A DNA stretch of 64,000 bases, taken from positions 97,297-161,296 of the forward strand of contig DATHTE010000133.1 in assembly GCA_035463475.1 (NCBI GenBank), given 5' to 3'. The position numbers were made by a program, and so were the translations under genes. The DNA comes from Vicinamibacterales bacterium (GTDB taxonomy: Bacteria > Acidobacteriota > Vicinamibacteria > Vicinamibacterales > 2-12-FULL-66-21). Every line of letters begins with the position of its first letter. The first letter of the stretch is position 1. This document shows, piece after piece, positions 4,317 through 57,015 of this stretch. The notes beneath the pieces were generated by a model. It did not search any database. It saw only the letters and a list, made by a program, of their open reading frames with translations, and was not told the origin of the DNA.

Positions 4317-4364
4317 TTAGCGGCGTGCGATCCCTCATACTTTGCACGACAAAGTGCCTGCGCG

Positions 4365-5099
4365 TCAATAGTCGACCGAAACGAGGAAAAGCCCGCGCGC
4401 CGGTGCCGTAGGCCCCGCCCGCGAACGGTCGCGCGAGGCGAGAACGTCGATCACCCATTCGGGGCGTGCGCGTCCCGCACCCACTTCCACCAGCGTCCCC
4501 ACGATCGCGCGCGCCATGTGACGCAGGAACCCGTCGGCGGTCGCGACGACGGAGAGGCGCGGCTCGCTGAAGCTGACGTCAAGCACCGACAGGTCGCGCT
4601 CCGTCGCCCTGACGTCGCTGCCCGCGGCCCGGAATGCCGCGAAATCGTGGCGCCCCACGAGCGCGCGCGCGGCCGCCCGCATCGCGGGCACGTCGAGCGG
4701 CTGCGGCACGTGCCAGGCATAGCGGTGCTCGAACGCCGAGACGAACGGCGCGTTCACGATGCGGTACTCGTAGGTCTTGGACCGCGCGGAGAAGCGCGCG
4801 TGGAACGTGTCTGCGACGCGGCGGGCATCGACGACGCGCACCTCCGGCGGCAAGGCCGCGTTCAGCGCGCGCTGCAGCGTCTGGTCGTCGAGGGAGGTGG
4901 TCAGCGCCACGCTGGCGACCTGCCCGAGCGCATGGACGCCCGCATCCGTGCGCCCGGCGCCGATGACGGTGACCGGCGCTCCTTCGATCGGTTCGAGCGC
5001 CTGTTCGATCAGTCCCTGGATCGACGTCCCGGCCGCCTGGCGCTGCCAGCCGACGTAACTCGTTCCGTCATACTGAAGAGTGAGTTTGACGGTTGGCAC
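4365..5099 (-). CDS. truA: tRNA pseudouridine(38-40) synthase
   Basis: 244 aa; YDGTSYVGWQRQ and GAGRTDAGVHA catalytic-Asp motif. Confidence 0.9.
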   Translation of the reverse strand: MPTVKLTLQYDGTSYVGWQRQAAGTSIQGLIEQALEPIEGAPVTVIGAGRTDAGVHALGQVASVALTTSLDDQTLQRALNAALPPEVRVVDARRVADTFHARFSARSKTYEYRIVNAPFVSAFEHRYAWHVPQPLDVPAMRAAARALVGRHDFAAFRAAGSDVRATERDLSVLDVSFSEPRLSVVATADGFLRHMARAIVGTLVEVGAGRARPEWVIDVLASRDRSRAGPTAPARGLFLVSVDY

Positions 5100-5667: not shown

Positions 5668-5669
5668 GG

Positions 5670-5717
5670 CCTTCTGCCTTCTACCTTCTGCCTTCTACCT
5701 TCTGCCCTCTATTCTCC
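5670..5717. repeat. tandem heptamer array (CCTTCTG/CCTTCTA) x6-7; minus-strand reading CAGAAGG/TAGAAGG
   Basis: Read directly: ccttctg ccttcta ccttctg ccttcta ccttctg ccctcta ttctcc; spans the peptidase stop codon (5695-5697) and ends 2 nt before the pyrE ATG. Confidence 0.9.

Positions 5718-15983: not shown

Positions 15984-15987
<4 letters not shown>
15019..15987 (-). CDS. pyrB: aspartate carbamoyltransferase catalytic subunit
   Basis: 322 aa; FFEPSTRTR and HPTQ, HPGP motifs. Confidence 0.93.
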
Positions 15988-16526
<539 letters not shown>

Positions 16527-16557
16527 GATGCAGGTGGAGGAGCAGGAGGTGTCACGG

Positions 16558-16592
16558 CAGACCTCTTCGCGGCCTCGCTGGACCGCGGTTAA
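16558..16592 (-). promoter_or_regulatory. candidate PyrR-binding RNA hairpin in the pyrR leader
   Basis: Minus-strand RNA reads UUAACCGCGGUCCAGCGAGGCCGCGAAGAGGUCUG: stem CGCGG/CCGCG enclosing UCCAGCGAGG, followed by GAAGAGG; resembles the remembered PyrR binding-loop core (approximately UCCAGAGAGGCU...GAAGG); 32 nt upstream of the pyrR ATG. Confidence 0.6.
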
Positions 16593-16620
16593 AGAGCGAG
16601 GGGGAGTGTATCACACACGT

Positions 16621-16842
16621 CGATCGGGTAACCGGTCATCGCGGAATCGGGGAATCGCACGATCGGGGAATCGGGTAATCGGCAATCGGGTAAATTGGAC
16701 CGGGGAATCGGGGAATCGGGTCATCGTGGGCGCCATAATGCGAGGCGACGGCACGATTACCGATCCCATGGCCCGATTGCCCGCTTACCCGATTACCGAT
16801 CGTGCCATCACCCGATTTACCCGATTATCATTTACCGATCGG
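16621..16842. repeat. about 220-bp dyad-symmetric array of 7-8 nt units (AATCGGG-type on the left arm, CCCGATT-type on the right arm)
   Basis: Read directly: left arm gaatcgg ggaatcg ... ggtaatc ggcaatc gggtaa...; right arm cgattac..cccgattgc..acccgattac..cccgatttacccgatt; ends cgatcgggtaa / ttaccgatcgg are inverted; fills the whole spacer between the AlkP-family gene stop (16843) and the pyrR leader. Confidence 0.9.
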
Positions 16843-18630
16843 CTAGCGTCCGGCCATCAGCGTCTCATACGACCTGATGAACACAATCGGCCTGCTGTCC
16901 GAGAACTCCTTCACGAACAGGTCCGTGCGCGCGAAGCCGTCCATGTCGCGGCCGACGGGGAGCCCGAGGTAATAGAGAATCGTCGGCGCGACGTCCACCA
17001 CCGCGCCGCGCTGGAGCTTGCCGGAACGCACGCGCGCGCCGTACGCGAGCAGAAACCCATCGGGCGCGCGCTCGTGCGTGCCGCTCATCCGCACGTCCCC
17101 GAGCAGCTGCGCCAGCAGGCGCTTCGGCACCGTCATCGGCTCCATGCCGAAGCCCGACACCACGAGCAGGAGATCGTCGGGACCGAGCGTCGCGATCTGG
17201 GCGCCAATCTCGGCGTCGAGAAACGCGTAGTACCGATCGAGCACCGCGCCGTGGCGCCGAACGTCCGCCTCCGAGACGTTGCCGAACGCCCGCGGCATCG
17301 CGTAGCGGAGATACGTGTGCCCGACCGCGTCGATGCCGGCATAGCGGACGGCCAGCAGCCCCGGGCGAATCGACGCCGACAGCTCGCGCGCGAGTCGGCC
17401 GTAGATGCGGTCCCACCGCGCCGGCTGCTCCTGCAGCGGTTCGAGGCCGCTGGCAGAGGCATTGACCGGCACCGGCGCGATCTCCGGGGCCTGCGGCGCG
17501 TCGAAGAACGCGTCACGCGCGGCGGGCAGGACCTCGGCTGGATATGCGACCGTCTCGTCAACCAGCCGCAGCAGCGAACGCGACACCAGGTGCAGGCGAT
17601 CGGAGATCAGGAACCCGCGGATCGGTTGCGCCGGGTACGTCACCGGCCAGCGGACGACGCCGCTCGAGATCCCGCGCGTGGCCAGCAGGCTCCAGAGCGG
17701 ACGCGCGCGCCATGAGGAGGACGAGTGCGGCGCGGCCTGCACGAGGCCGAAGCGGACGAGCGCGTGCGCCAGGCAGTAGTCCGGCAGCAGCTGCACGGCG
17801 TGGGTGCGCGAACGGACGTAATAGAGCGCGCTGCTCGGCACGCCGTTGCGCGGCGGGTACTTGCCGGTGGCGACGGCGGCCCACACCGGCTCCGGCTGCG
17901 TCGGGCGCAGCGTCGCGAGGTCCATCGCCGCGCCACGGTCGAGGATGCGCCCGAAGTTCGGAAACCGGCCCTCCACCGCCCGCGGCCACAAGTAGTCGAG
18001 CGAGGCCCCCTCGAGCAGCACCAGCACGACGCGACCGGCACTGGCCTCCGTGTCCCCCCCGCTCGTGGCGGCCGTGGCGGGCGCCGTGAACGGCTGCGCC
18101 GCAGGTGGCCGCAGCTCACCGAACCCTCGCGCCGCCAGCGGCAACGCCAGCGACGCGCCGAGCGCGAGGCTGAGGATCGCGGCCGCCGCGCGGCTGCCCC
18201 GCCAGCCGATCGAGTACGACGCGATCGCGATCGACAGCAGCACCGCCGCGACGCCGGTCGCGCCGATGGCTCCCGCGGCCATCCCCCGCGCCGCGTCCTC
18301 GCCGATCGCCACCGAGAAGGCGCGCAGGTTCAGCCACATCAGCAGCGCCGCGCCGCCGCAGAGCAACGTGCCGAACCACGCCTGCAGCCGCACGCTGACC
18401 CATGCCGGTCCGCGCACCGGCACGCCGATCACCTCGAGCAGCAGCATCGCCCCGTAGCAGCCCACCGCGAGGTGCACACCATAGAGCGCCGAGAGCGCAG
18501 CGTACCACTCGATCACGACCCGATCGAACACTGGAAGGTGCGGATTCAACTGCAGCAGCAGAATCGTGAGGTACGCGGCGCCGACGAGCCCGGCGATCAA
18601 CGCGTTGGAGAGCAGTCGAAGGTACCGCAC
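16843..18630 (-). CDS. membrane-anchored alkaline-phosphatase-superfamily protein (type I phosphodiesterase/nucleotide pyrophosphatase-like)
   Basis: 595 aa; about 5 N-terminal TM helices, then VVLVLLEGASLDYLWP...TLRPTQPEPVWAAVATGKYPPRNG and DAVGHTY metal-site-like motifs; start codon is GTG. Confidence 0.7.
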   Translation of the reverse strand: MRYLRLLSNALIAGLVGAAYLTILLLQLNPHLPVFDRVVIEWYAALSALYGVHLAVGCYGAMLLLEVIGVPVRGPAWVSVRLQAWFGTLLCGGAALLMWLNLRAFSVAIGEDAARGMAAGAIGATGVAAVLLSIAIASYSIGWRGSRAAAAILSLALGASLALPLAARGFGELRPPAAQPFTAPATAATSGGDTEASAGRVVLVLLEGASLDYLWPRAVEGRFPNFGRILDRGAAMDLATLRPTQPEPVWAAVATGKYPPRNGVPSSALYYVRSRTHAVQLLPDYCLAHALVRFGLVQAAPHSSSSWRARPLWSLLATRGISSGVVRWPVTYPAQPIRGFLISDRLHLVSRSLLRLVDETVAYPAEVLPAARDAFFDAPQAPEIAPVPVNASASGLEPLQEQPARWDRIYGRLARELSASIRPGLLAVRYAGIDAVGHTYLRYAMPRAFGNVSEADVRRHGAVLDRYYAFLDAEIGAQIATLGPDDLLLVVSGFGMEPMTVPKRLLAQLLGDVRMSGTHERAPDGFLLAYGARVRSGKLQRGAVVDVAPTILYYLGLPVGRDMDGFARTDLFVKEFSDSRPIVFIRSYETLMAGR

Positions 18631-43525: not shown

Positions 43526-43574
43526 CGAATGCCGAATACCGAGTGCCGAATGCCGAACGTCGAAGAGCGAGTCG
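43526..43574. repeat. tandem heptamer array CGAATGC-type x7
   Basis: cgaatgc cgaatac cgagtgc cgaatgc cgaacgt cgaagag cgagtcg read directly. Confidence 0.85.
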
Positions 43575-50641: not shown

Positions 50642-50682
50642 TCAGGGTTCAGGCTTCAGCGTTCAGGATTCAGGTTCAGGGC
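50642..50682. repeat. tandem heptamer array TCAGGGT-type x6
   Basis: tcagggt tcaggct tcagcgt tcaggat tcaggt tcagggc read directly; contains the ybbR-like stop codon (50663-50665). Confidence 0.85.
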
Positions 50683-52395: not shown

Positions 52396-52414
52396 ACCAG
52401 GCGATTCTAGTCCA

Positions 52415-52496
52415 TCGGTAATTGGCAATCGGGGTCATCGGGTAATCGCACGATCGGGTAATCGGGGAATCGGCAATCGGGTAGTGGGATTACCAG
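52415..52496. repeat. AATCGGG-type heptamer array, second copy of the element at 16621-16842 (left-arm homolog)
   Basis: ggtcatcgggtaatcgcacgatcgggtaatcggggaatcggcaatcgggta here versus ggtcatcgcggaatcggggaatcgcacgatcggggaatcgggtaatcggcaatcgggta at 16634-16692. Confidence 0.85.
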
Positions 52497-53369
52497 TTAC
52501 TCGATGTGCGTGACCTCCCGCCGGATCCGGTCCGCGACGCGGACGACGTCCGCCATGGCTGCTACGCCGTGCACGCGGACGATGTGGGCGCCGAGGAGCA
52601 CGGCGGCGGCCACTGCGGAAGCGGTCGCCCATTCGCGCTGGTCCGGAGAGCGATCGCCGATCGCCTCGTTCAGAAACGACTTGCGCGATGCGCCGATCAG
52701 GATCGGCAGATCGAGCGCCGACAGGGCGTCGAGCCGGGCGAGCGTCGCAAAGCTGTGTTCGGGCCGCTTGGCGAAGCCGAGGCCCGGATCGACGACAATC
52801 TGCCCGCGGGCAATGCCGCAGGAGACGGCAAACGCGACCCGCTGCCCGAGTTCATCCACCACTTCCCGGACCGGATCGTGATAGACCGCGTCCCGGTACA
52901 TGTCCGCGGAGCGGCCGCGCGTGTGCATCAGCACGATGGGCATGCGTCGCCGCGCCGCAATGTCGCCCAGCGCGGGCTCGTAGACGAGCCCGCTGATGTC
53001 GTTGACGATCGAGGCCCCGGCGTCGAACGCCGCGTCCGCCACGTCCGCCTTGTAGGTATCGATCGAAATCGGCACGGAGACGCGTCGCGCGAGCGCCTCG
53101 ATGACCGGTATGACGCGGCGCTTCTCTTCCTCGGTGGACACGGGAACCGCGCCCGGGCGCGTGGACTCCCCACCGACGTCGAGCAGATCCGCCCCGGCGT
53201 CCACCATGGTCAGGCCGGCATCCACCGCCCGCGTGGCATCGAAGTGCGCGCCGCCGTCGGCAAAGGAGTCGGGGGTGATGTTCAGGATCCCCATCACGAG
53301 CGTGCGCGGGCCGAGACGCACCGCATCGCCGTTCGGCAGGGTGAGGGTGTAGGGCTTGCGGGGGAACAC
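52497..53369 (-). CDS. folP: dihydropteroate synthase
   Basis: Start at GTG 53369 (V-FPRKPYTLTLPNG); GILNITPDSFADGG and DVGGESTRPG motifs; upstream part of the 379-aa track ORF is translated repeat array. Confidence 0.88.
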   Translation of the reverse strand: MFPRKPYTLTLPNGDAVRLGPRTLVMGILNITPDSFADGGAHFDATRAVDAGLTMVDAGADLLDVGGESTRPGAVPVSTEEEKRRVIPVIEALARRVSVPISIDTYKADVADAAFDAGASIVNDISGLVYEPALGDIAARRRMPIVLMHTRGRSADMYRDAVYHDPVREVVDELGQRVAFAVSCGIARGQIVVDPGLGFAKRPEHSFATLARLDALSALDLPILIGASRKSFLNEAIGDRSPDQREWATASAVAAAVLLGAHIVRVHGVAAMADVVRVADRIRREVTHIE

Positions 53370-53374
53370 GAACG

Positions 53375-53532
53375 GGTCCGTCCGACAAGGTCCGACAAGG
53401 TTCGATCGGTTCGATCGGTTCGATAGGTTCGACAGGTTCGACAGGTTCCGGGTTCGAGTTCGCCTGAACCCTTCGAACCTATCGAACCTTTCGGACCTTT
53501 CGAACCTTTCGAACTTTTCGAACCGTTCGAAA
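53375..53532. repeat. dyad-symmetric array of 9-10 nt tandem repeats (TTCGAYMGG x about 8, then NTTCGAACC x about 7)
   Basis: Read directly: tccgacaagg x2, ttcgatcgg x2, ttcgatagg, ttcgacagg x2 ... then cttcgaacc tatcgaacc tttcggacc tttcgaacc tttcgaac ttttcgaacc gttcgaaac; fills the ftsH-folP spacer. Confidence 0.9.
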
Positions 53533-55434: not shown

Positions 55435-56825
55435 GCAAGTTCCCCCAAACGCCTGACCTTCAAGAGTAACACGGCCCCTTCCGGGCTCGTGACCCGGAAG
55501 TCCTCTGCAACGGTGTGGCCGACAATCCAGACAATCCGGTCGCGGCCATCCACGACCAGCGGGACGCGATCCCGCTCATTTCGAGGCACTTTGCGGTCAA
55601 CAAAGTAATCCTGCAGTTTTTTCCGGCCCGCCAGCCCGGCGGGCCGGAAACGGTCACCGCGCCTCCGGTTCCGCACGGCCATATTGCCGGACACGGCCGC
55701 GGCGGACACGGTAACCTGATCCGGTGTTTCGGCTCGATCAGCCGGGCCGATTACGATTTCAGCCGTGATGGCGACGCCACTCTCCCGGACGCGGGCCTCT
55801 CCAGGAATAGACAACGGATACGTGAAAATGTTCGATTCCGGGGCATTCTGCGCCCCCCGGCCCCTTCCCGGCCCCAGCGCGAGCGTCTTCCCGTCCACCT
55901 CCGCGTGAATGCCCGGCAGGTCCAGCGCCCCGGACTCGAGCGCCAGGACCGCGTCCACGTGCTTCAGGCCGATGAAGCGTCCGGCCGCGACACCCGCCAT
56001 GGCCCGCAGGAGAACGCGCCGGGCGATGGCCGGATGCAGCGCCTTCAAGCGCGCCACGTCCAGCCGGAGCGAGCCATCCTCACTAGGTAAGACGACTGCC
56101 GGAGTCGCTTCGATTGCCTGCGCCTCGAGAAAATTCGCGTCAGCGTCGGCAATGTCGGCGGCGCGCGCGATGGCCTCCCCGGCTCCGGGCACGATGCGCT
56201 CCAGCGCGGGCAACAGCTCGTGGCGAATCCGGTTGCGCGGGATCGATAGGTCGGCGTTCGTCGCATCGGTCCGAAACGCAATCGCACGGCCTTCGAGCCA
56301 GGCGTGCAGCTCTGCCCGCCCGACGTCGAGCAGCGGGCGGACGATGGCGTGGCGCCTTCGCCGGATGCCGCTCAGGCCCCGAGGGCCCGCCCCGCGAAGC
56401 AGACGCAGCAAGAACGTCTCCGCCTGGTCGTCCCGCGTGTGCCCCACGGCGATAACGTCGGCGTTCAGTCCGGCCCGGGCGCGCTCCAGGAACTCGTAAC
56501 GCAGCCTGCGTCCCGCGTTCTCGACCGAGGTCTTCCACTCGCGCGCGGCGGCCGCCACGTCCGCACGTTCAGACACGAACTCGACGGCAAGCGAGCCGCC
56601 CAGCTCGCGGCAGAACGCTTCGTCGGCGTCCGCGTCCGCGCCGCGCAGGCCGTGGTGGAGATGGGCGAGACCCACGAGCTTCAGGCCCGCGGCCCCCTGG
56701 AGCTCCCGAAGAAGGTGCGCCATTGCGACCGAGTCCGGGCCGCCCGAGACGGCGGCGATCACACGAGATCCCTTCGGAATCAGGCTGCGGACGGTGCGGA
56801 GGACGCGCTCCGGTACAGGGTGCAT
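55431..56825 (-). CDS. tilS: tRNA(Ile)-lysidine synthase
   Basis: 464 aa; SGGPDS PP-loop, overlaps the ftsH start; tilS-ftsH-folP order is conserved. Confidence 0.9.
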
Positions 56826-56878
56826 GTCCGCCTCAGGCGGACACCAGGTAGGGCCAGCCTGCAGGCGGACCAGAAAAG

Positions 56879-56955
56879 TGGTGCCGGTGCAGGGACTTGA
56901 ACCCCGGACACTGCGGATATGAGCCGCATGCTCTAACCATCTGAGCTACACCGGC
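56879..56955 (-). tRNA. tRNA with CAU anticodon (elongator Met or lysidine-dependent Ile2; not an initiator)
   Basis: Hand-folded cloverleaf: acceptor GCCGGTG/CACCGGC, D arm GCTC..GAGC, anticodon arm TGCGG-CTCATAT-CCGCA, T arm CGGGG-TTCAAGT-CCCTG, discriminator A, encoded CCA; G1-C72 pair argues against an initiator. Confidence 0.85.
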
Positions 56956-56981
56956 AGGAACCCCTAAGTATAACAAACAAA

Positions 56982-57015
56982 TCAGGGTTCAGGGTTCGGG
57001 CTCGGGTGCGAGGAT
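56982..57015. repeat. short heptamer array TCAGGGT TCAGGGT TCGGGC TCGGGTG CGAGGAT
   Basis: Read directly between the OMP stop (57017) and the tRNA promoter region; same unit as the array at 50642-50682. Confidence 0.7.

What the first reader, a model, noticed from the sequence alone, without database searches (positions are those of the whole stretch)
16621..16842. 220-bp dyad-symmetric array of AATCGGG units between the AlkP-family gene and the pyrR leader, with a G-quadruplex-type run
The left half consists of GGGAATC/GGTAATC/GGCAATC units. The right half is their reverse complement (GATTACC, CGATTGC, CCGATTT), and the termini are inverted (cgatcgggtaa ... ttaccgatcgg). The whole spacer can therefore fold into one long imperfect hairpin or cruciform. 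Plus-strand positions about 16702-16730 read GGGGAATCGGGGAATCGGGTCATCGTGGG: four G-tracts with loops of 4, 4 and 7 nt, a canonical G4 motif on the template strand of the pyr operon. The structure resembles a MITE-like or REP-like element built from microsatellite units. I have not seen this architecture described.
Basis: seen in the sequence. Interest (0 to 1): 0.6.

Follow-up and report, generated by a model that had tools for sequence, protein, structure and literature searches.

The report
Inverted octamer-repeat hairpin between two genes
The spacer in front of the pyrimidine operon of a soil acidobacterium is filled by two facing runs of an 8-base repeat (GGGNAATC) that can fold into one long hairpin; this is a real but little-studied kind of bacterial repeat, already described as a 7-base version in Xanthomonas, and its function is still unproven.

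Summary
Window 16621-16842 holds about 11 GGGNAATC units, a 27-nt centre, then their reverse complement. The period is 8, not 7. It fills the gap from the stop codon of a phosphodiesterase-family gene to the extended -10 of the pyrR promoter.

- **Fold:** either strand folds into an imperfect hairpin of about 80 bp (z about -5).
- **G4 motifs:** With G4 allowed, the predicted optimum is still the hairpin.
- **Prior description:** Rehm et al. 2015 described GGGAATC arrays in Xanthomonas, including convergent pairs next to stop codons.
- **New here:**
  - the host is Vicinamibacterales;
  - the period is 8;
  - the unit occurs in more than 120 metagenome contigs;
  - polarity is strict: of 130 arrays, the inverted partner lies 3' of the G-rich arm in 46 and 5' in none;
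  - the two arms and a solo copy at 52.4 kb are in-register paralogues;
  - relatives carry unrelated 7-9-nt dyads, plain hairpins or nothing at the same spot.

My best reading is a fast-evolving repeat hairpin in a terminator slot that marks a transcript boundary. That function is inferred, not shown.

The parts
16621..16726 (.). Left arm: about 11 degenerate GGGNAATC units, G-rich on the + strand. In the sense (minus-strand) RNA this is the C-rich 3' arm of the hairpin. Its outer unit overlaps the -35 region of the pyr promoter.
   Evidence: TRF period 8/16 at 16623-16726; ATCG spacing mostly 8; pairs with the right arm.
16727..16753 (.). Non-repeat centre (loop region) of the dyad, with only a weak 4-bp local stem.
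   Evidence: Folds; no unit periodicity here.
16754..16842 (.). Right arm: the reverse-complement units (NCCCGATT on the + strand). In the sense RNA this is the G-rich 5' arm. It starts 0 nt after the stop codon of the upstream gene.
   Evidence: TRF 16772-16827 CCCGATTA x7; in-register alignment with the left arm and the 52.4-kb copy.
16702..16730 (+).
   Evidence: Regex G3+N1-7 x4. Not used in the minimum-free-energy structure when G4 is allowed.
16765..16790 (-). Mirror G4 motif on the transcribed-sense strand, GGGTAAGCGGGCAATCGGGCCATGGG.
   Evidence: It folds as a G4 only when isolated from the complementary arm.
16843..16845 (-). TAG stop codon of the PF01663 phosphodiesterase-family gene (16843-18630). 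This is the outer boundary of the element.
16605..16613 (-). Extended -10 (TGATACACT) of the pyr promoter. This is the inner boundary of the element.
   Evidence: Read. A TGnTAnnnT-like element sits 9-15 nt upstream of CTCTTTAA in nearly all Vicinamibacterales relatives examined by eye. The simple consensus scan did not call it.
16563..16596 (-). PyrR-binding hairpin of the pyrR leader. It is outside the repeat element.
   Evidence: Partial RF00515 match, model positions 4-37, 25.5 bits, below the gathering score; conserved in relatives.
52407..52490 (.). Solo paralogue of one arm (G-rich on +), lying between the folP stop codon (52497-52499, minus strand) and the start of a small ORF at about 52396.
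   Evidence: 84% and 80% identity to the two arms. It shares the irregular unit GCACGATCGG at the same alignment column and the outer end CTAG[CT]C[CG]ATCGGTAA.
53380..53531 (.). A second dyad with the same architecture but an unrelated 9-nt unit, (AGGTTCGAY)n ... (GAACCTTTC)n. It fills the ftsH-folP spacer and starts 1 nt after the ftsH stop codon.
   Evidence: TRF; sequence; fold -86 to -89 kcal/mol; gene assignments.

Best explanation
What it is: an inverted pair of degenerate tandem arrays of the G-rich octamer GGGNAATC. This is an 8-nt variant of the GGGNATC-type intergenic simple-sequence repeats known from Xanthomonas and Nostoc, here in a Vicinamibacterales (Acidobacteriota) genome.

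How it arose (inferred): an arm module of about 90 nt was duplicated in inverted orientation, and such arrays are remodelled by replication slippage. The module also exists as a solo copy 36 kb away.

How it works (inferred, not shown): it occupies the slot between the stop codon of the upstream gene and the pyr promoter, where related genomes have ordinary GC hairpins. When the upstream gene is transcribed, its 3' end folds into an imperfect RNA hairpin of about 80 bp. That hairpin would act as a transcript-boundary element by pausing or terminating RNA polymerase, by blocking 3' exonucleases, or by offering an RNase III site. The effect would be to separate the upstream transcript from the PyrR-controlled pyr promoter.

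The G4 motifs are a by-product of GGG-containing units and are outcompeted by the hairpin.
For: Identity:
- The same class is described in the literature with the same context rules: convergent pairs, G-rich strand on the coding strand within 50 nt of the stop codon.
- I recovered those rules for the octamer in metagenome contigs.

Origin:
- The two arms and the 52.4-kb copy align in register and share an irregular decamer that is absent from the arrays of all metagenome loci.
- The only indel between two 99.9%-identical assemblies is 4 units of another array at 5669.
- Between L006 and L067 the array region is 0-68% identical with large indels, while the flanks are 80-95% identical.

Terminator slot:
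- Six of seven dyads examined start 0-10 nt after a stop codon and end at the next promoter's -10.
- The orthologous spacer holds plain GC hairpins in L019 and L002.
- Downstream of an orthologous tRNA gene, the window has a GC hairpin where L135 has an AATCGGGG dyad.
- Several octamer dyads enclose a GC hairpin followed by a few T (L101, L140).
- In Xanthomonas RNA-seq, transcripts start or stop at such repeats more often than at control repeats.

G4 is secondary:
- The minimum-free-energy structure with G4 allowed is the hairpin.
- Sister dyads lack G-tracts.
Against: - There are no transcript data for this organism.
- No U-tract follows the hairpin, and the terminator scan found nothing on the sense strand.
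- L016 and L018 keep the same gene order with under 20 nt between stop codon and -10, so no hairpin is required at this position.
- The hairpin is equally stable on both strands and there is no excess of G-U pairs on the sense strand, so there is no sign of RNA-level selection.
- Arms of sister dyads are often unequal (L005 4.6 versus 10.4 units; L140 3 versus 10).
- Sequence turnover is fast, which also fits a neutral mutational product.
- The distribution over co-directional, convergent and divergent spacers did not differ from expectation in my crude gene calls.
- The strict G-arm-first polarity is not explained by a plain hairpin function.
Confidence: 0.42

Rival explanations
1. Mutational by-product with no selected function. 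In this lineage 7-9-nt units expand by slippage wherever constraint is absent. Arrays grow until they meet the stop codon on one side and the promoter on the other. The hairpin is incidental.
For: - About 50 arrays of many unrelated units occur in 265 kb of Vicinamibacterales DNA, and those with 7- or 8-nt units are mostly non-coding.
- Copy number varies between near-identical assemblies.
- The array region turns over fast relative to its flanks.
- Presence or absence varies among relatives at the same site, including spacers with no structure at all.
- There is no strand asymmetry in pairing.
- The element fills the stop-to-promoter gap exactly.
Against: - Polarity is strict: of 130 arrays, 46 have the inverted partner 3' of the G-rich arm and none has it 5'.
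- Arrays abut stop codons even in long spacers, with distance to the stop of -9 to 20 nt while distance to the next start reaches 1164 nt.
- The same octamer recurs in contigs of 40-72% GC.
- Xanthomonas transcript ends are enriched at such repeats.
- Pure slippage does not create the inverse arm or the dispersed in-register copy.
Confidence: 0.3
2. A REPIN- or MITE-like non-autonomous mobile element. The arm of about 90 nt is the mobilised module, the hairpin doublet is the transposition-competent form, and solo arms are remnants.
For: - There are three in-register paralogous modules in 64 kb, sharing irregular units and an outer-end motif.
- The doublet has a fixed polarity, as expected for a structure recognised as a unit.
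- The location is extragenic and next to gene 3' ends.
- Orthologous sites differ by presence or absence (tRNA locus).
Against: - There is no target-site duplication at either end.
- There is no second full-length copy in 74 kb of this genome.
- Unit number, arm length and centre differ widely between dyads.
- Generic arrays of the unit align at about 80% anyway.
- The module is not a 20-40-nt palindrome and has no symmetric GTAG/CGTC head.
- No transposase was identified, and none was searched for genome-wide.
- The unit is nearly absent from viral contigs and there was no plasmid hit.
Confidence: 0.15
3. G-quadruplex regulator. The G-tracts on each strand fold into G4 DNA or RNA that blocks polymerase or recruits proteins, and the repeat exists to provide four G-runs.
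For: - Two of the seven canonical G4 motifs in 64 kb lie in this 222-nt element, one per strand.
- Oligonucleotides of the related GGGAATC repeat form G4 in vitro, and four-unit arrays are preferred in Xanthomonas.
Against: - In silico, the complementary arm outcompetes G4 on both strands.
- Most G-tract spacings in the arms exceed 7 nt because of irregular units.
- Dyads with the same architecture and position in this window and in relatives use units without G-tracts.
- The + strand motif is upstream of the pyr promoter, not within the operon.
Confidence: 0.07
4. An array of binding sites for a DNA- or RNA-binding protein, such as a nucleoid-associated, operator-like or centromere-like protein that reads the 8-nt unit.
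For: The units are regularly spaced in direct and inverted orientation, and the array overlaps the -35 region of the pyr promoter. The same unit is conserved across many contigs.
Against: Many unrelated units show the same architecture within one genome. The units are highly degenerate. An 8-bp period is out of helical phase. No candidate protein was identified.
Confidence: 0.04

Closest known systems
GGGAATC / GGGGA(C/T)T G-rich heptamer repeats of Xanthomonas and Nostoc (Rehm et al. 2015, PLoS One, PMC4692102)
   Same: - The unit core is almost identical (GGG-N-AATC).
- Arrays are degenerate, tandem and intergenic.
- The G-rich strand lies on the coding strand within 50 nt of the stop codon, and the C-rich strand lies upstream of start codons.
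- Convergent inverted pairs able to form stem-loops are frequent.
- The arrays have G4 potential.
- Length varies between relatives.
- The function is unresolved.
   Different: - The period is 8, not 7.
- The host is Acidobacteriota (Vicinamibacterales) and other soil taxa, not Gammaproteobacteria or Cyanobacteria.
- The arms are long (about 90 nt) and occur as in-register paralogous modules.
- The same genomes hold equivalent dyads built from many unrelated 7-9-nt units.
Cyanobacterial STRR heptamers and TAACTGA heptamer repeats (MacGregor 2015, PMC4679880)
   Same: Short (7-nt) tandem units in intergenic spacers, often right next to start codons, with variable copy number and unknown function.
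   Different: Those are almost always direct arrays; 169 direct sets against one indirect set are reported in one genome. They have different units and no long hairpin.
REP / BIME / REPIN elements of Proteobacteria
   Same: Extragenic, clustered at gene 3' ends, occurring as singlets and as inverted doublets that fold into hairpins, with proposed roles in termination and mRNA stabilisation. This comparison is from my own knowledge and the abstract of PMC3733652.
   Different: REP units are 20-40-nt imperfect palindromes with a GTAG or CGTC head and are linked to RAYT transposases. Here the module is a non-palindromic tandem array of about 90 nt, has no such head, and has no known mobilising gene.
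Rho-independent (intrinsic) terminators, including bidirectional ones
   Same: The position is immediately after a gene end, before the next promoter. The minimal unit pair AAUCGGGG...CCCCGAUU has a GC stem flanked by A on the 5' side and U on the 3' side. The slot is shared with plain GC hairpins in relatives.
   Different: The stem is about 80 bp rather than 5-20 bp, there is no U-tract, and the consensus scan did not detect it.

Membership tests
GGGNATC-type G-rich intergenic SSR arrays (Rehm et al. 2015) | Tandem array of at least 2 units containing GGGAATC, with heterogeneous units allowed | tested here: met
   GGGGAATC, GGGTAATC and GGCAATC units; about 11 units per arm.
GGGNATC-type G-rich intergenic SSR arrays (Rehm et al. 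2015) | Heptameric period | tested here: not met
   TRF period 8/16; ATCG spacing mostly 8. The same holds in the metagenome arrays.
GGGNATC-type G-rich intergenic SSR arrays (Rehm et al. 2015) | Intergenic, with the G-rich strand on the coding strand within 50 nt of the upstream stop codon | tested here: met
   The G-rich arm of the sense strand starts 0 nt after the TAG at 16843-16845. The same rule holds in metagenome loci.
GGGNATC-type G-rich intergenic SSR arrays (Rehm et al. 2015) | Occurrence as convergent inverted pairs | tested here: met
   Across octamer arrays, 46 have the partner on the 3' side and 0 on the 5' side.
GGGNATC-type G-rich intergenic SSR arrays (Rehm et al. 2015) | At least 4 G-tracts that actually fold into a G4 | not testable with these tools
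   The motif is present on both strands. Folding in vitro needs CD or stop assays. In silico the hairpin wins.
GGGNATC-type G-rich intergenic SSR arrays (Rehm et al. 2015) | Unit-number variation between close relatives | tested here: inconclusive
   This element is identical in the 99.93% assembly. Another array in the window differs by 4 units. L006 and L067 arrays differ strongly.
REP / BIME / REPIN | Unit is a 20-40-nt imperfect palindrome with a GTAG or CGTC head | tested here: not met
   The arms are tandem arrays. The long inverted pairs link the two halves; only short pairs touch the centre, such as I12 and I21. CGTC occurs next to both ends but in direct, not mirrored, orientation, and is absent at the solo copy.
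REP / BIME / REPIN | Many dispersed copies plus a cognate RAYT transposase | not tested
   Only three modules were seen in 64 kb. No whole genome was available, and no search for RAYT was made.
MITE | Terminal inverted repeats flanked by a target-site duplication, with multiple full-length copies | tested here: not met
   The flanks ...cacacgt | element | ctagcgtc... share no direct repeat. The only other copy is a single arm. No empty site at high identity was available.
Canonical intrinsic terminator | Short GC-rich hairpin followed directly by a U-tract | tested here: not met
   No terminator-like site on the sense strand in the spacer. The 3' flank reads CGACGUGUGUGAUACAC.
PyrR attenuator / binding site (RF00515) | PyrR-binding hairpin with the UCCAG-GAGG loop | tested here: not met
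   The binding hairpin lies outside the element, at 16563-16596. The element itself gives no Rfam match.

The most novel reading that the evidence does not exclude
The G-arm-first dyads of 7-9-nt units may be a distinct and widespread class of self-propagating intergenic elements in soil bacteria. On this reading they are made by a polar, dedicated process, for example reiterative synthesis at 3' ends, hairpin tips or breaks, or mobilisation of a hairpin doublet. That process would explain the complete absence of the opposite polarity and the dispersed in-register copies. Cells would use the elements as bidirectional transcript-boundary modules that replace classical terminators.
Probability: 0.1. 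Interest if true: 0.7.

Novelty: new variant of a known kind. Interest (0 to 1): 0.4.

Why it matters
Bacterial tandem repeats with 6-9-nt units are common in some large, GC-rich genomes but have hardly been studied. Only one detailed paper exists for the closest relative of this repeat, and it left the function open.

This locus adds four things. The phenomenon extends to Acidobacteriota and to an 8-nt period. It obeys a strict polarity and a gene-end rule. It sits where other genomes place terminators. Its unit sequence can be swapped entirely between relatives while the architecture stays.

If these dyads are shown to end or process transcripts, they would be a terminator-like device that genomes can generate and resize by simple slippage. 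Annotation of terminators and operons in poorly studied soil phyla would then need to take them into account. They also break short-read assemblies and could serve as variable-number typing markers.

Tried and rejected
- **Rfam:** at gathering thresholds, and at E up to 10 on the spacer, there was nothing in the element. The only relevant hit was a partial PyrR hairpin outside it.
- **Promoter and terminator scan:** no sense-strand call in the spacer.
- **Plasmid BLAST with the whole element:** no match, possibly because of the low-complexity filter.
- **Viral contig scan with the 3-unit pattern:** 6 hits in 2.9 million contigs, so no phage link.
- **Literature search with the octamer strings:** returned only primer noise. 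A search with GGGAATC found only Rehm 2015 and two papers on variable-number tandem-repeat typing.
- **Sense-strand RNA selection:** I compared G-U with A-C mismatches and the two strands' energies. There was no consistent asymmetry in 7 dyads.
- **Spacer type:** enrichment in co-directional or convergent over divergent spacers was not different from expectation (32/11/6 against 61/22/17% of intergenic bases). My GC3-based gene caller is crude and put 19 arrays 'inside' genes.
- **Orthologous-site conservation of the unit:** rejected. Relatives with the same gene order have other units or none.
- **Extending the genome:** only 10 kb was gained. The second look-up failed and the ENA contig ends inside the window's range.
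- **Rejected on period and architecture without a dedicated tool:** CRISPR, iterons, and a coding or small-peptide reading.

Full report
**1. The observation**

Window 16621-16842 is the whole non-coding gap between two points. One is the TAG stop codon of a PF01663 (type I phosphodiesterase, alkaline-phosphatase superfamily) gene at 16843-18630 on the minus strand. The other is the promoter and leader of pyrR (15984-16526, minus strand), which is followed by pyrB and a dihydroorotase-like gene.

TRF finds a period-8 array (ATCGGGGA x10.8; wider extent 16623-16726) and its inverse (CCCGATTA x7, 16772-16827). ATCG recurs 11 times in the left 110 nt against 0.9 expected, mostly 8 nt apart. A two-unit pattern gives 8 hits in the window against 0.1 expected. 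The unit is therefore an octamer, GGGNAATC, with occasional 7-nt and irregular units.

The two halves are complementary (46-nt arms at 72% ungapped, and many shorter pairs). Folded with short flanks, the spacer gives a long hairpin as RNA (window 16527-16860, minus strand; -146.7 kcal/mol, z -5.1) and as DNA (window 16610-16850, plus strand; z -5.5). The 222-nt element alone forms 80-84 pairs.

The G4 motif at 16702-16730 is exact and has a mirror twin on the minus strand at 16765-16790. Only seven such motifs exist in the 64 kb. An independent metagenome assembly that is 99.93% identical over 20.5 kb carries the element unchanged, so it is not an assembly artefact.

**2. Boundaries and context**

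On the sense (minus) strand the element begins 0 nt after the stop codon. It ends 7 nt before an extended -10, TGATACACT (16613-16605). Next comes the PyrR-binding hairpin CUCUUUAACCGCGGUCCAGCGAGGCCGCGAAGAG, which is a partial RF00515 match (25.5 bits, below the gathering score).

In nearly all Vicinamibacterales relatives I examined by eye, a TGnTAnnnT-like element sits 9-15 nt upstream of CTCTTTAA. I therefore place the pyr promoter downstream of the repeat.

The organism is assigned to Vicinamibacterales from the record titles of the best PyrR matches, which are 70-85% identical.

**3. It is one of many**

- The same window holds a solo array of the same unit at 52407-52490, between folP and a small ORF.
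- It also holds a second dyad of identical architecture but an unrelated 9-nt unit at 53380-53531. That dyad fills the ftsH-folP spacer and starts 1 nt after the ftsH stop codon.
- Several one-sided 7-nt arrays are also present.
- Across 265 kb of Vicinamibacterales DNA I counted about 50 arrays of period 6-11. Those with 7- or 8-nt units are mostly non-coding, and at least ten arrays are arranged as inverted pairs.

The orthologous phosphodiesterase-to-pyrR spacer is the most telling comparison.

| Locus | Content of the spacer |
|---|---|
| L005 | dyad of CAGTTTC / AACTGGC |
| L006, L067 | dyad of CAGTCGT-type units |
| L011 | dyad of GCGGCTA / CTAGCCG |
| L021 | dyad of GGTTCG-type units |
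| L002, L019 | plain GC hairpins |
| L016, L018 | almost no spacer |

All five array-bearing spacers fold into hairpins of -52 to -190 kcal/mol. The architecture recurs at this site while the sequence does not.

**4. Distribution and rules for the octamer**

Their GC content ranges from 40 to 72%. It hit only 6 viral contigs.

Of 130 arrays with sufficient flanks, 46 have an inverted partner 3' of the G-rich arm and none has one 5' of it. The null rate is 1.2%. The dyad is therefore always 5'-(AATCGGGN)n...(NCCCGATT)n-3' on both strands.

In co-directional spacers, arrays that are G-rich in the mRNA sit 0-10 nt after the stop codon. Arrays that are C-rich in the mRNA sit 0-20 nt before the next start codon. 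Dyads hug the stop codon even when the next gene is hundreds of bases away. The other-unit dyads are also G-rich-arm-first in most cases, judged by eye.

**5. Origin and dynamics**

The left arm, the reverse complement of the right arm and the 52.4-kb copy align in register at 78% column identity. All three carry the irregular decamer GCACGATCGG at the same column. That decamer is absent from every array in the metagenome loci. Two of the three copies share the outer end CTAG[CT]C[CG]ATCGGTAA. They are therefore paralogous modules of about 90 nt, not independent expansions. A caveat is that any two arrays of this unit align at about 80%.

The two arms are the most diverged of the three pairs: 79.5% against 84% and 80%. 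This gives no sign that arm complementarity is being maintained.

Slippage is active in the lineage. The only indel between the two near-identical assemblies is 28 nt, which is four units of the GCCTTCT array at 5669. Between L006 and L067 the flanks are 80-95% identical and the promoter plus PyrR hairpin 86%, but the array region is 0-68% identical with large indels.

**6. What it probably does**

Two independent loci show dyads occupying the place of ordinary hairpins.

- One is the pyrR-upstream spacer.
- The other is the region just 3' of an orthologous tRNA gene. There the window has a GC stem-loop (GTCCGCC-TGA-GGCGGAC) and contig L135 has an AATCGGGG dyad.

Some octamer dyads enclose a GC hairpin followed by a few T (L101, L140). 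In Xanthomonas, transcripts start or stop at the related repeats more often than at control repeats, and the repeats are under-represented in transcript interiors.

I therefore commit to a transcript-boundary role for the RNA hairpin, through termination or pausing, a 3'-exonuclease barrier, or RNase III processing. My confidence is 0.42.

Several results count against this reading.

- There is no U-tract and no terminator call on the sense strand.
- Relatives exist with no spacer at all.
- The two strands are equally stable, with no sense-strand excess of G-U pairs.
- Arms are often unequal.
- There is no spacer-type enrichment in my crude analysis.

A neutral slippage product (0.30) and a REPIN- or MITE-like mobile module (0.15) remain serious rivals. 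The G4 reading is weak (0.07). With G4 energies enabled the optimum is still the hairpin on both strands, and sister dyads have no G-tracts.

**7. Comparison with what is known**

Rehm et al. 2015 (PMC4692102) described GGGAATC heptamer arrays in Xanthomonas and GGGGA(C/T)T arrays in Nostoc. Their main points match what I see here.

- There are about 185 arrays per Xanthomonas genome, about 90% of them intergenic.
- Arrays lie on average 28 nt from the 5' neighbouring ORF.
- There are 70-75 convergent pairs per genome with stem-loop potential.
- G4 formation was shown in vitro.
- The function was left unresolved.

The present element shares the unit core, the context rules and the convergent pairing. 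It fails one defining feature, the 7-nt period. It also adds a new phylum. Huang and Mrazek 2014 scored 7- and 8-nt repeats as not over-represented in the four Acidobacteria genera then available. It is not a member of the REP, MITE or canonical-terminator families on the features I could test. I rate it a new variant of a known kind.

**8. Verdict**

The claim of novelty is overstated, and the G4 emphasis is probably misplaced. Interest is moderate at 0.40. The open points that could raise it are the absolute polarity, the dispersed in-register copies, and the replacement of terminator-like hairpins by repeat dyads.

Noticed in passing
window 53380-53531: A second dyad-symmetric array with an unrelated 9-nt unit, (AGGTTCGAY)x5.7 then (GAACCTTTC)x7.3. 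It fills the ftsH-folP spacer, starts 1 nt after the ftsH stop codon, and folds at -86 to -89 kcal/mol.
   Followed up: partly
window 5669-5710 (and L202): A heptamer array (GCCTTCT; AGAAGGC on the sense strand, which resembles a Shine-Dalgarno sequence). It lies directly upstream of the ATG of a PF00156 gene and overlaps the end of an S9-peptidase gene. The window has 6 units and the 99.9%-identical ENA contig has 10. This is the only indel between the two assemblies.
   Followed up: partly
window 16523-16555 (minus strand); L094 about 4320-4400: A 10-codon upstream ORF ([10 protein letters not shown]) starts 6 nt after the GAAGAGG of the PyrR-binding hairpin. Its TGA stop overlaps the pyrR ATG (ATGA). 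In contig L094 an upstream ORF of about 30 codons does the same (TAATG) and contains an AATCGGGT-family array in its stop-free orientation. This suggests PyrR controls pyrR by hiding the upstream ORF's ribosome-binding site, with translational coupling to pyrR.
   Followed up: partly
L082-L208 (metagenome and viral loci): Absolute polarity of the octamer dyads: of 130 arrays, 46 have the inverted partner 3' of the G-rich arm and 0 have it 5'. A plain hairpin function does not explain this.
   Followed up: partly
window 50642-50681, 56980-57010; L202 18351-18404: A second recurrent unit family, TCAGGNT, occurs at three or more loci of the same genome. One copy overlaps the end of a YbbR-domain gene, where the unit supplies TGA stop codons.
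   Followed up: no
L135 93-212 versus window 56765-56881: Downstream of an orthologous tRNA gene (94% identical), L135 has an AATCGGGG dyad where the window has an ordinary GC stem-loop. This is a presence/absence difference in a terminator slot.
   Followed up: yes
L004 3735-3833: A run of N lies at the orthologous phosphodiesterase-pyrR spacer. It may be an assembly gap or masked stretch at the spot where relatives carry repeat dyads. The same locus has an (ACTTTCTC)x7 array inside the pyrR leader.
   Followed up: no
window 1-64000 versus ENA ERZ27272645 k141_777275: The window is not the ENA contig that encodes identical proteins. The two differ by 15 SNPs in 20.5 kb, and the contig would end inside the window's range, so the window comes from another assembly of a near-identical strain.
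   Followed up: yes
window 43526-43557: A CGAATGC x4.6 heptamer array lies at the junction of two co-directional minus-strand genes. It is unclear whether it is in the 5' end of the downstream gene or in the spacer.
   Followed up: no
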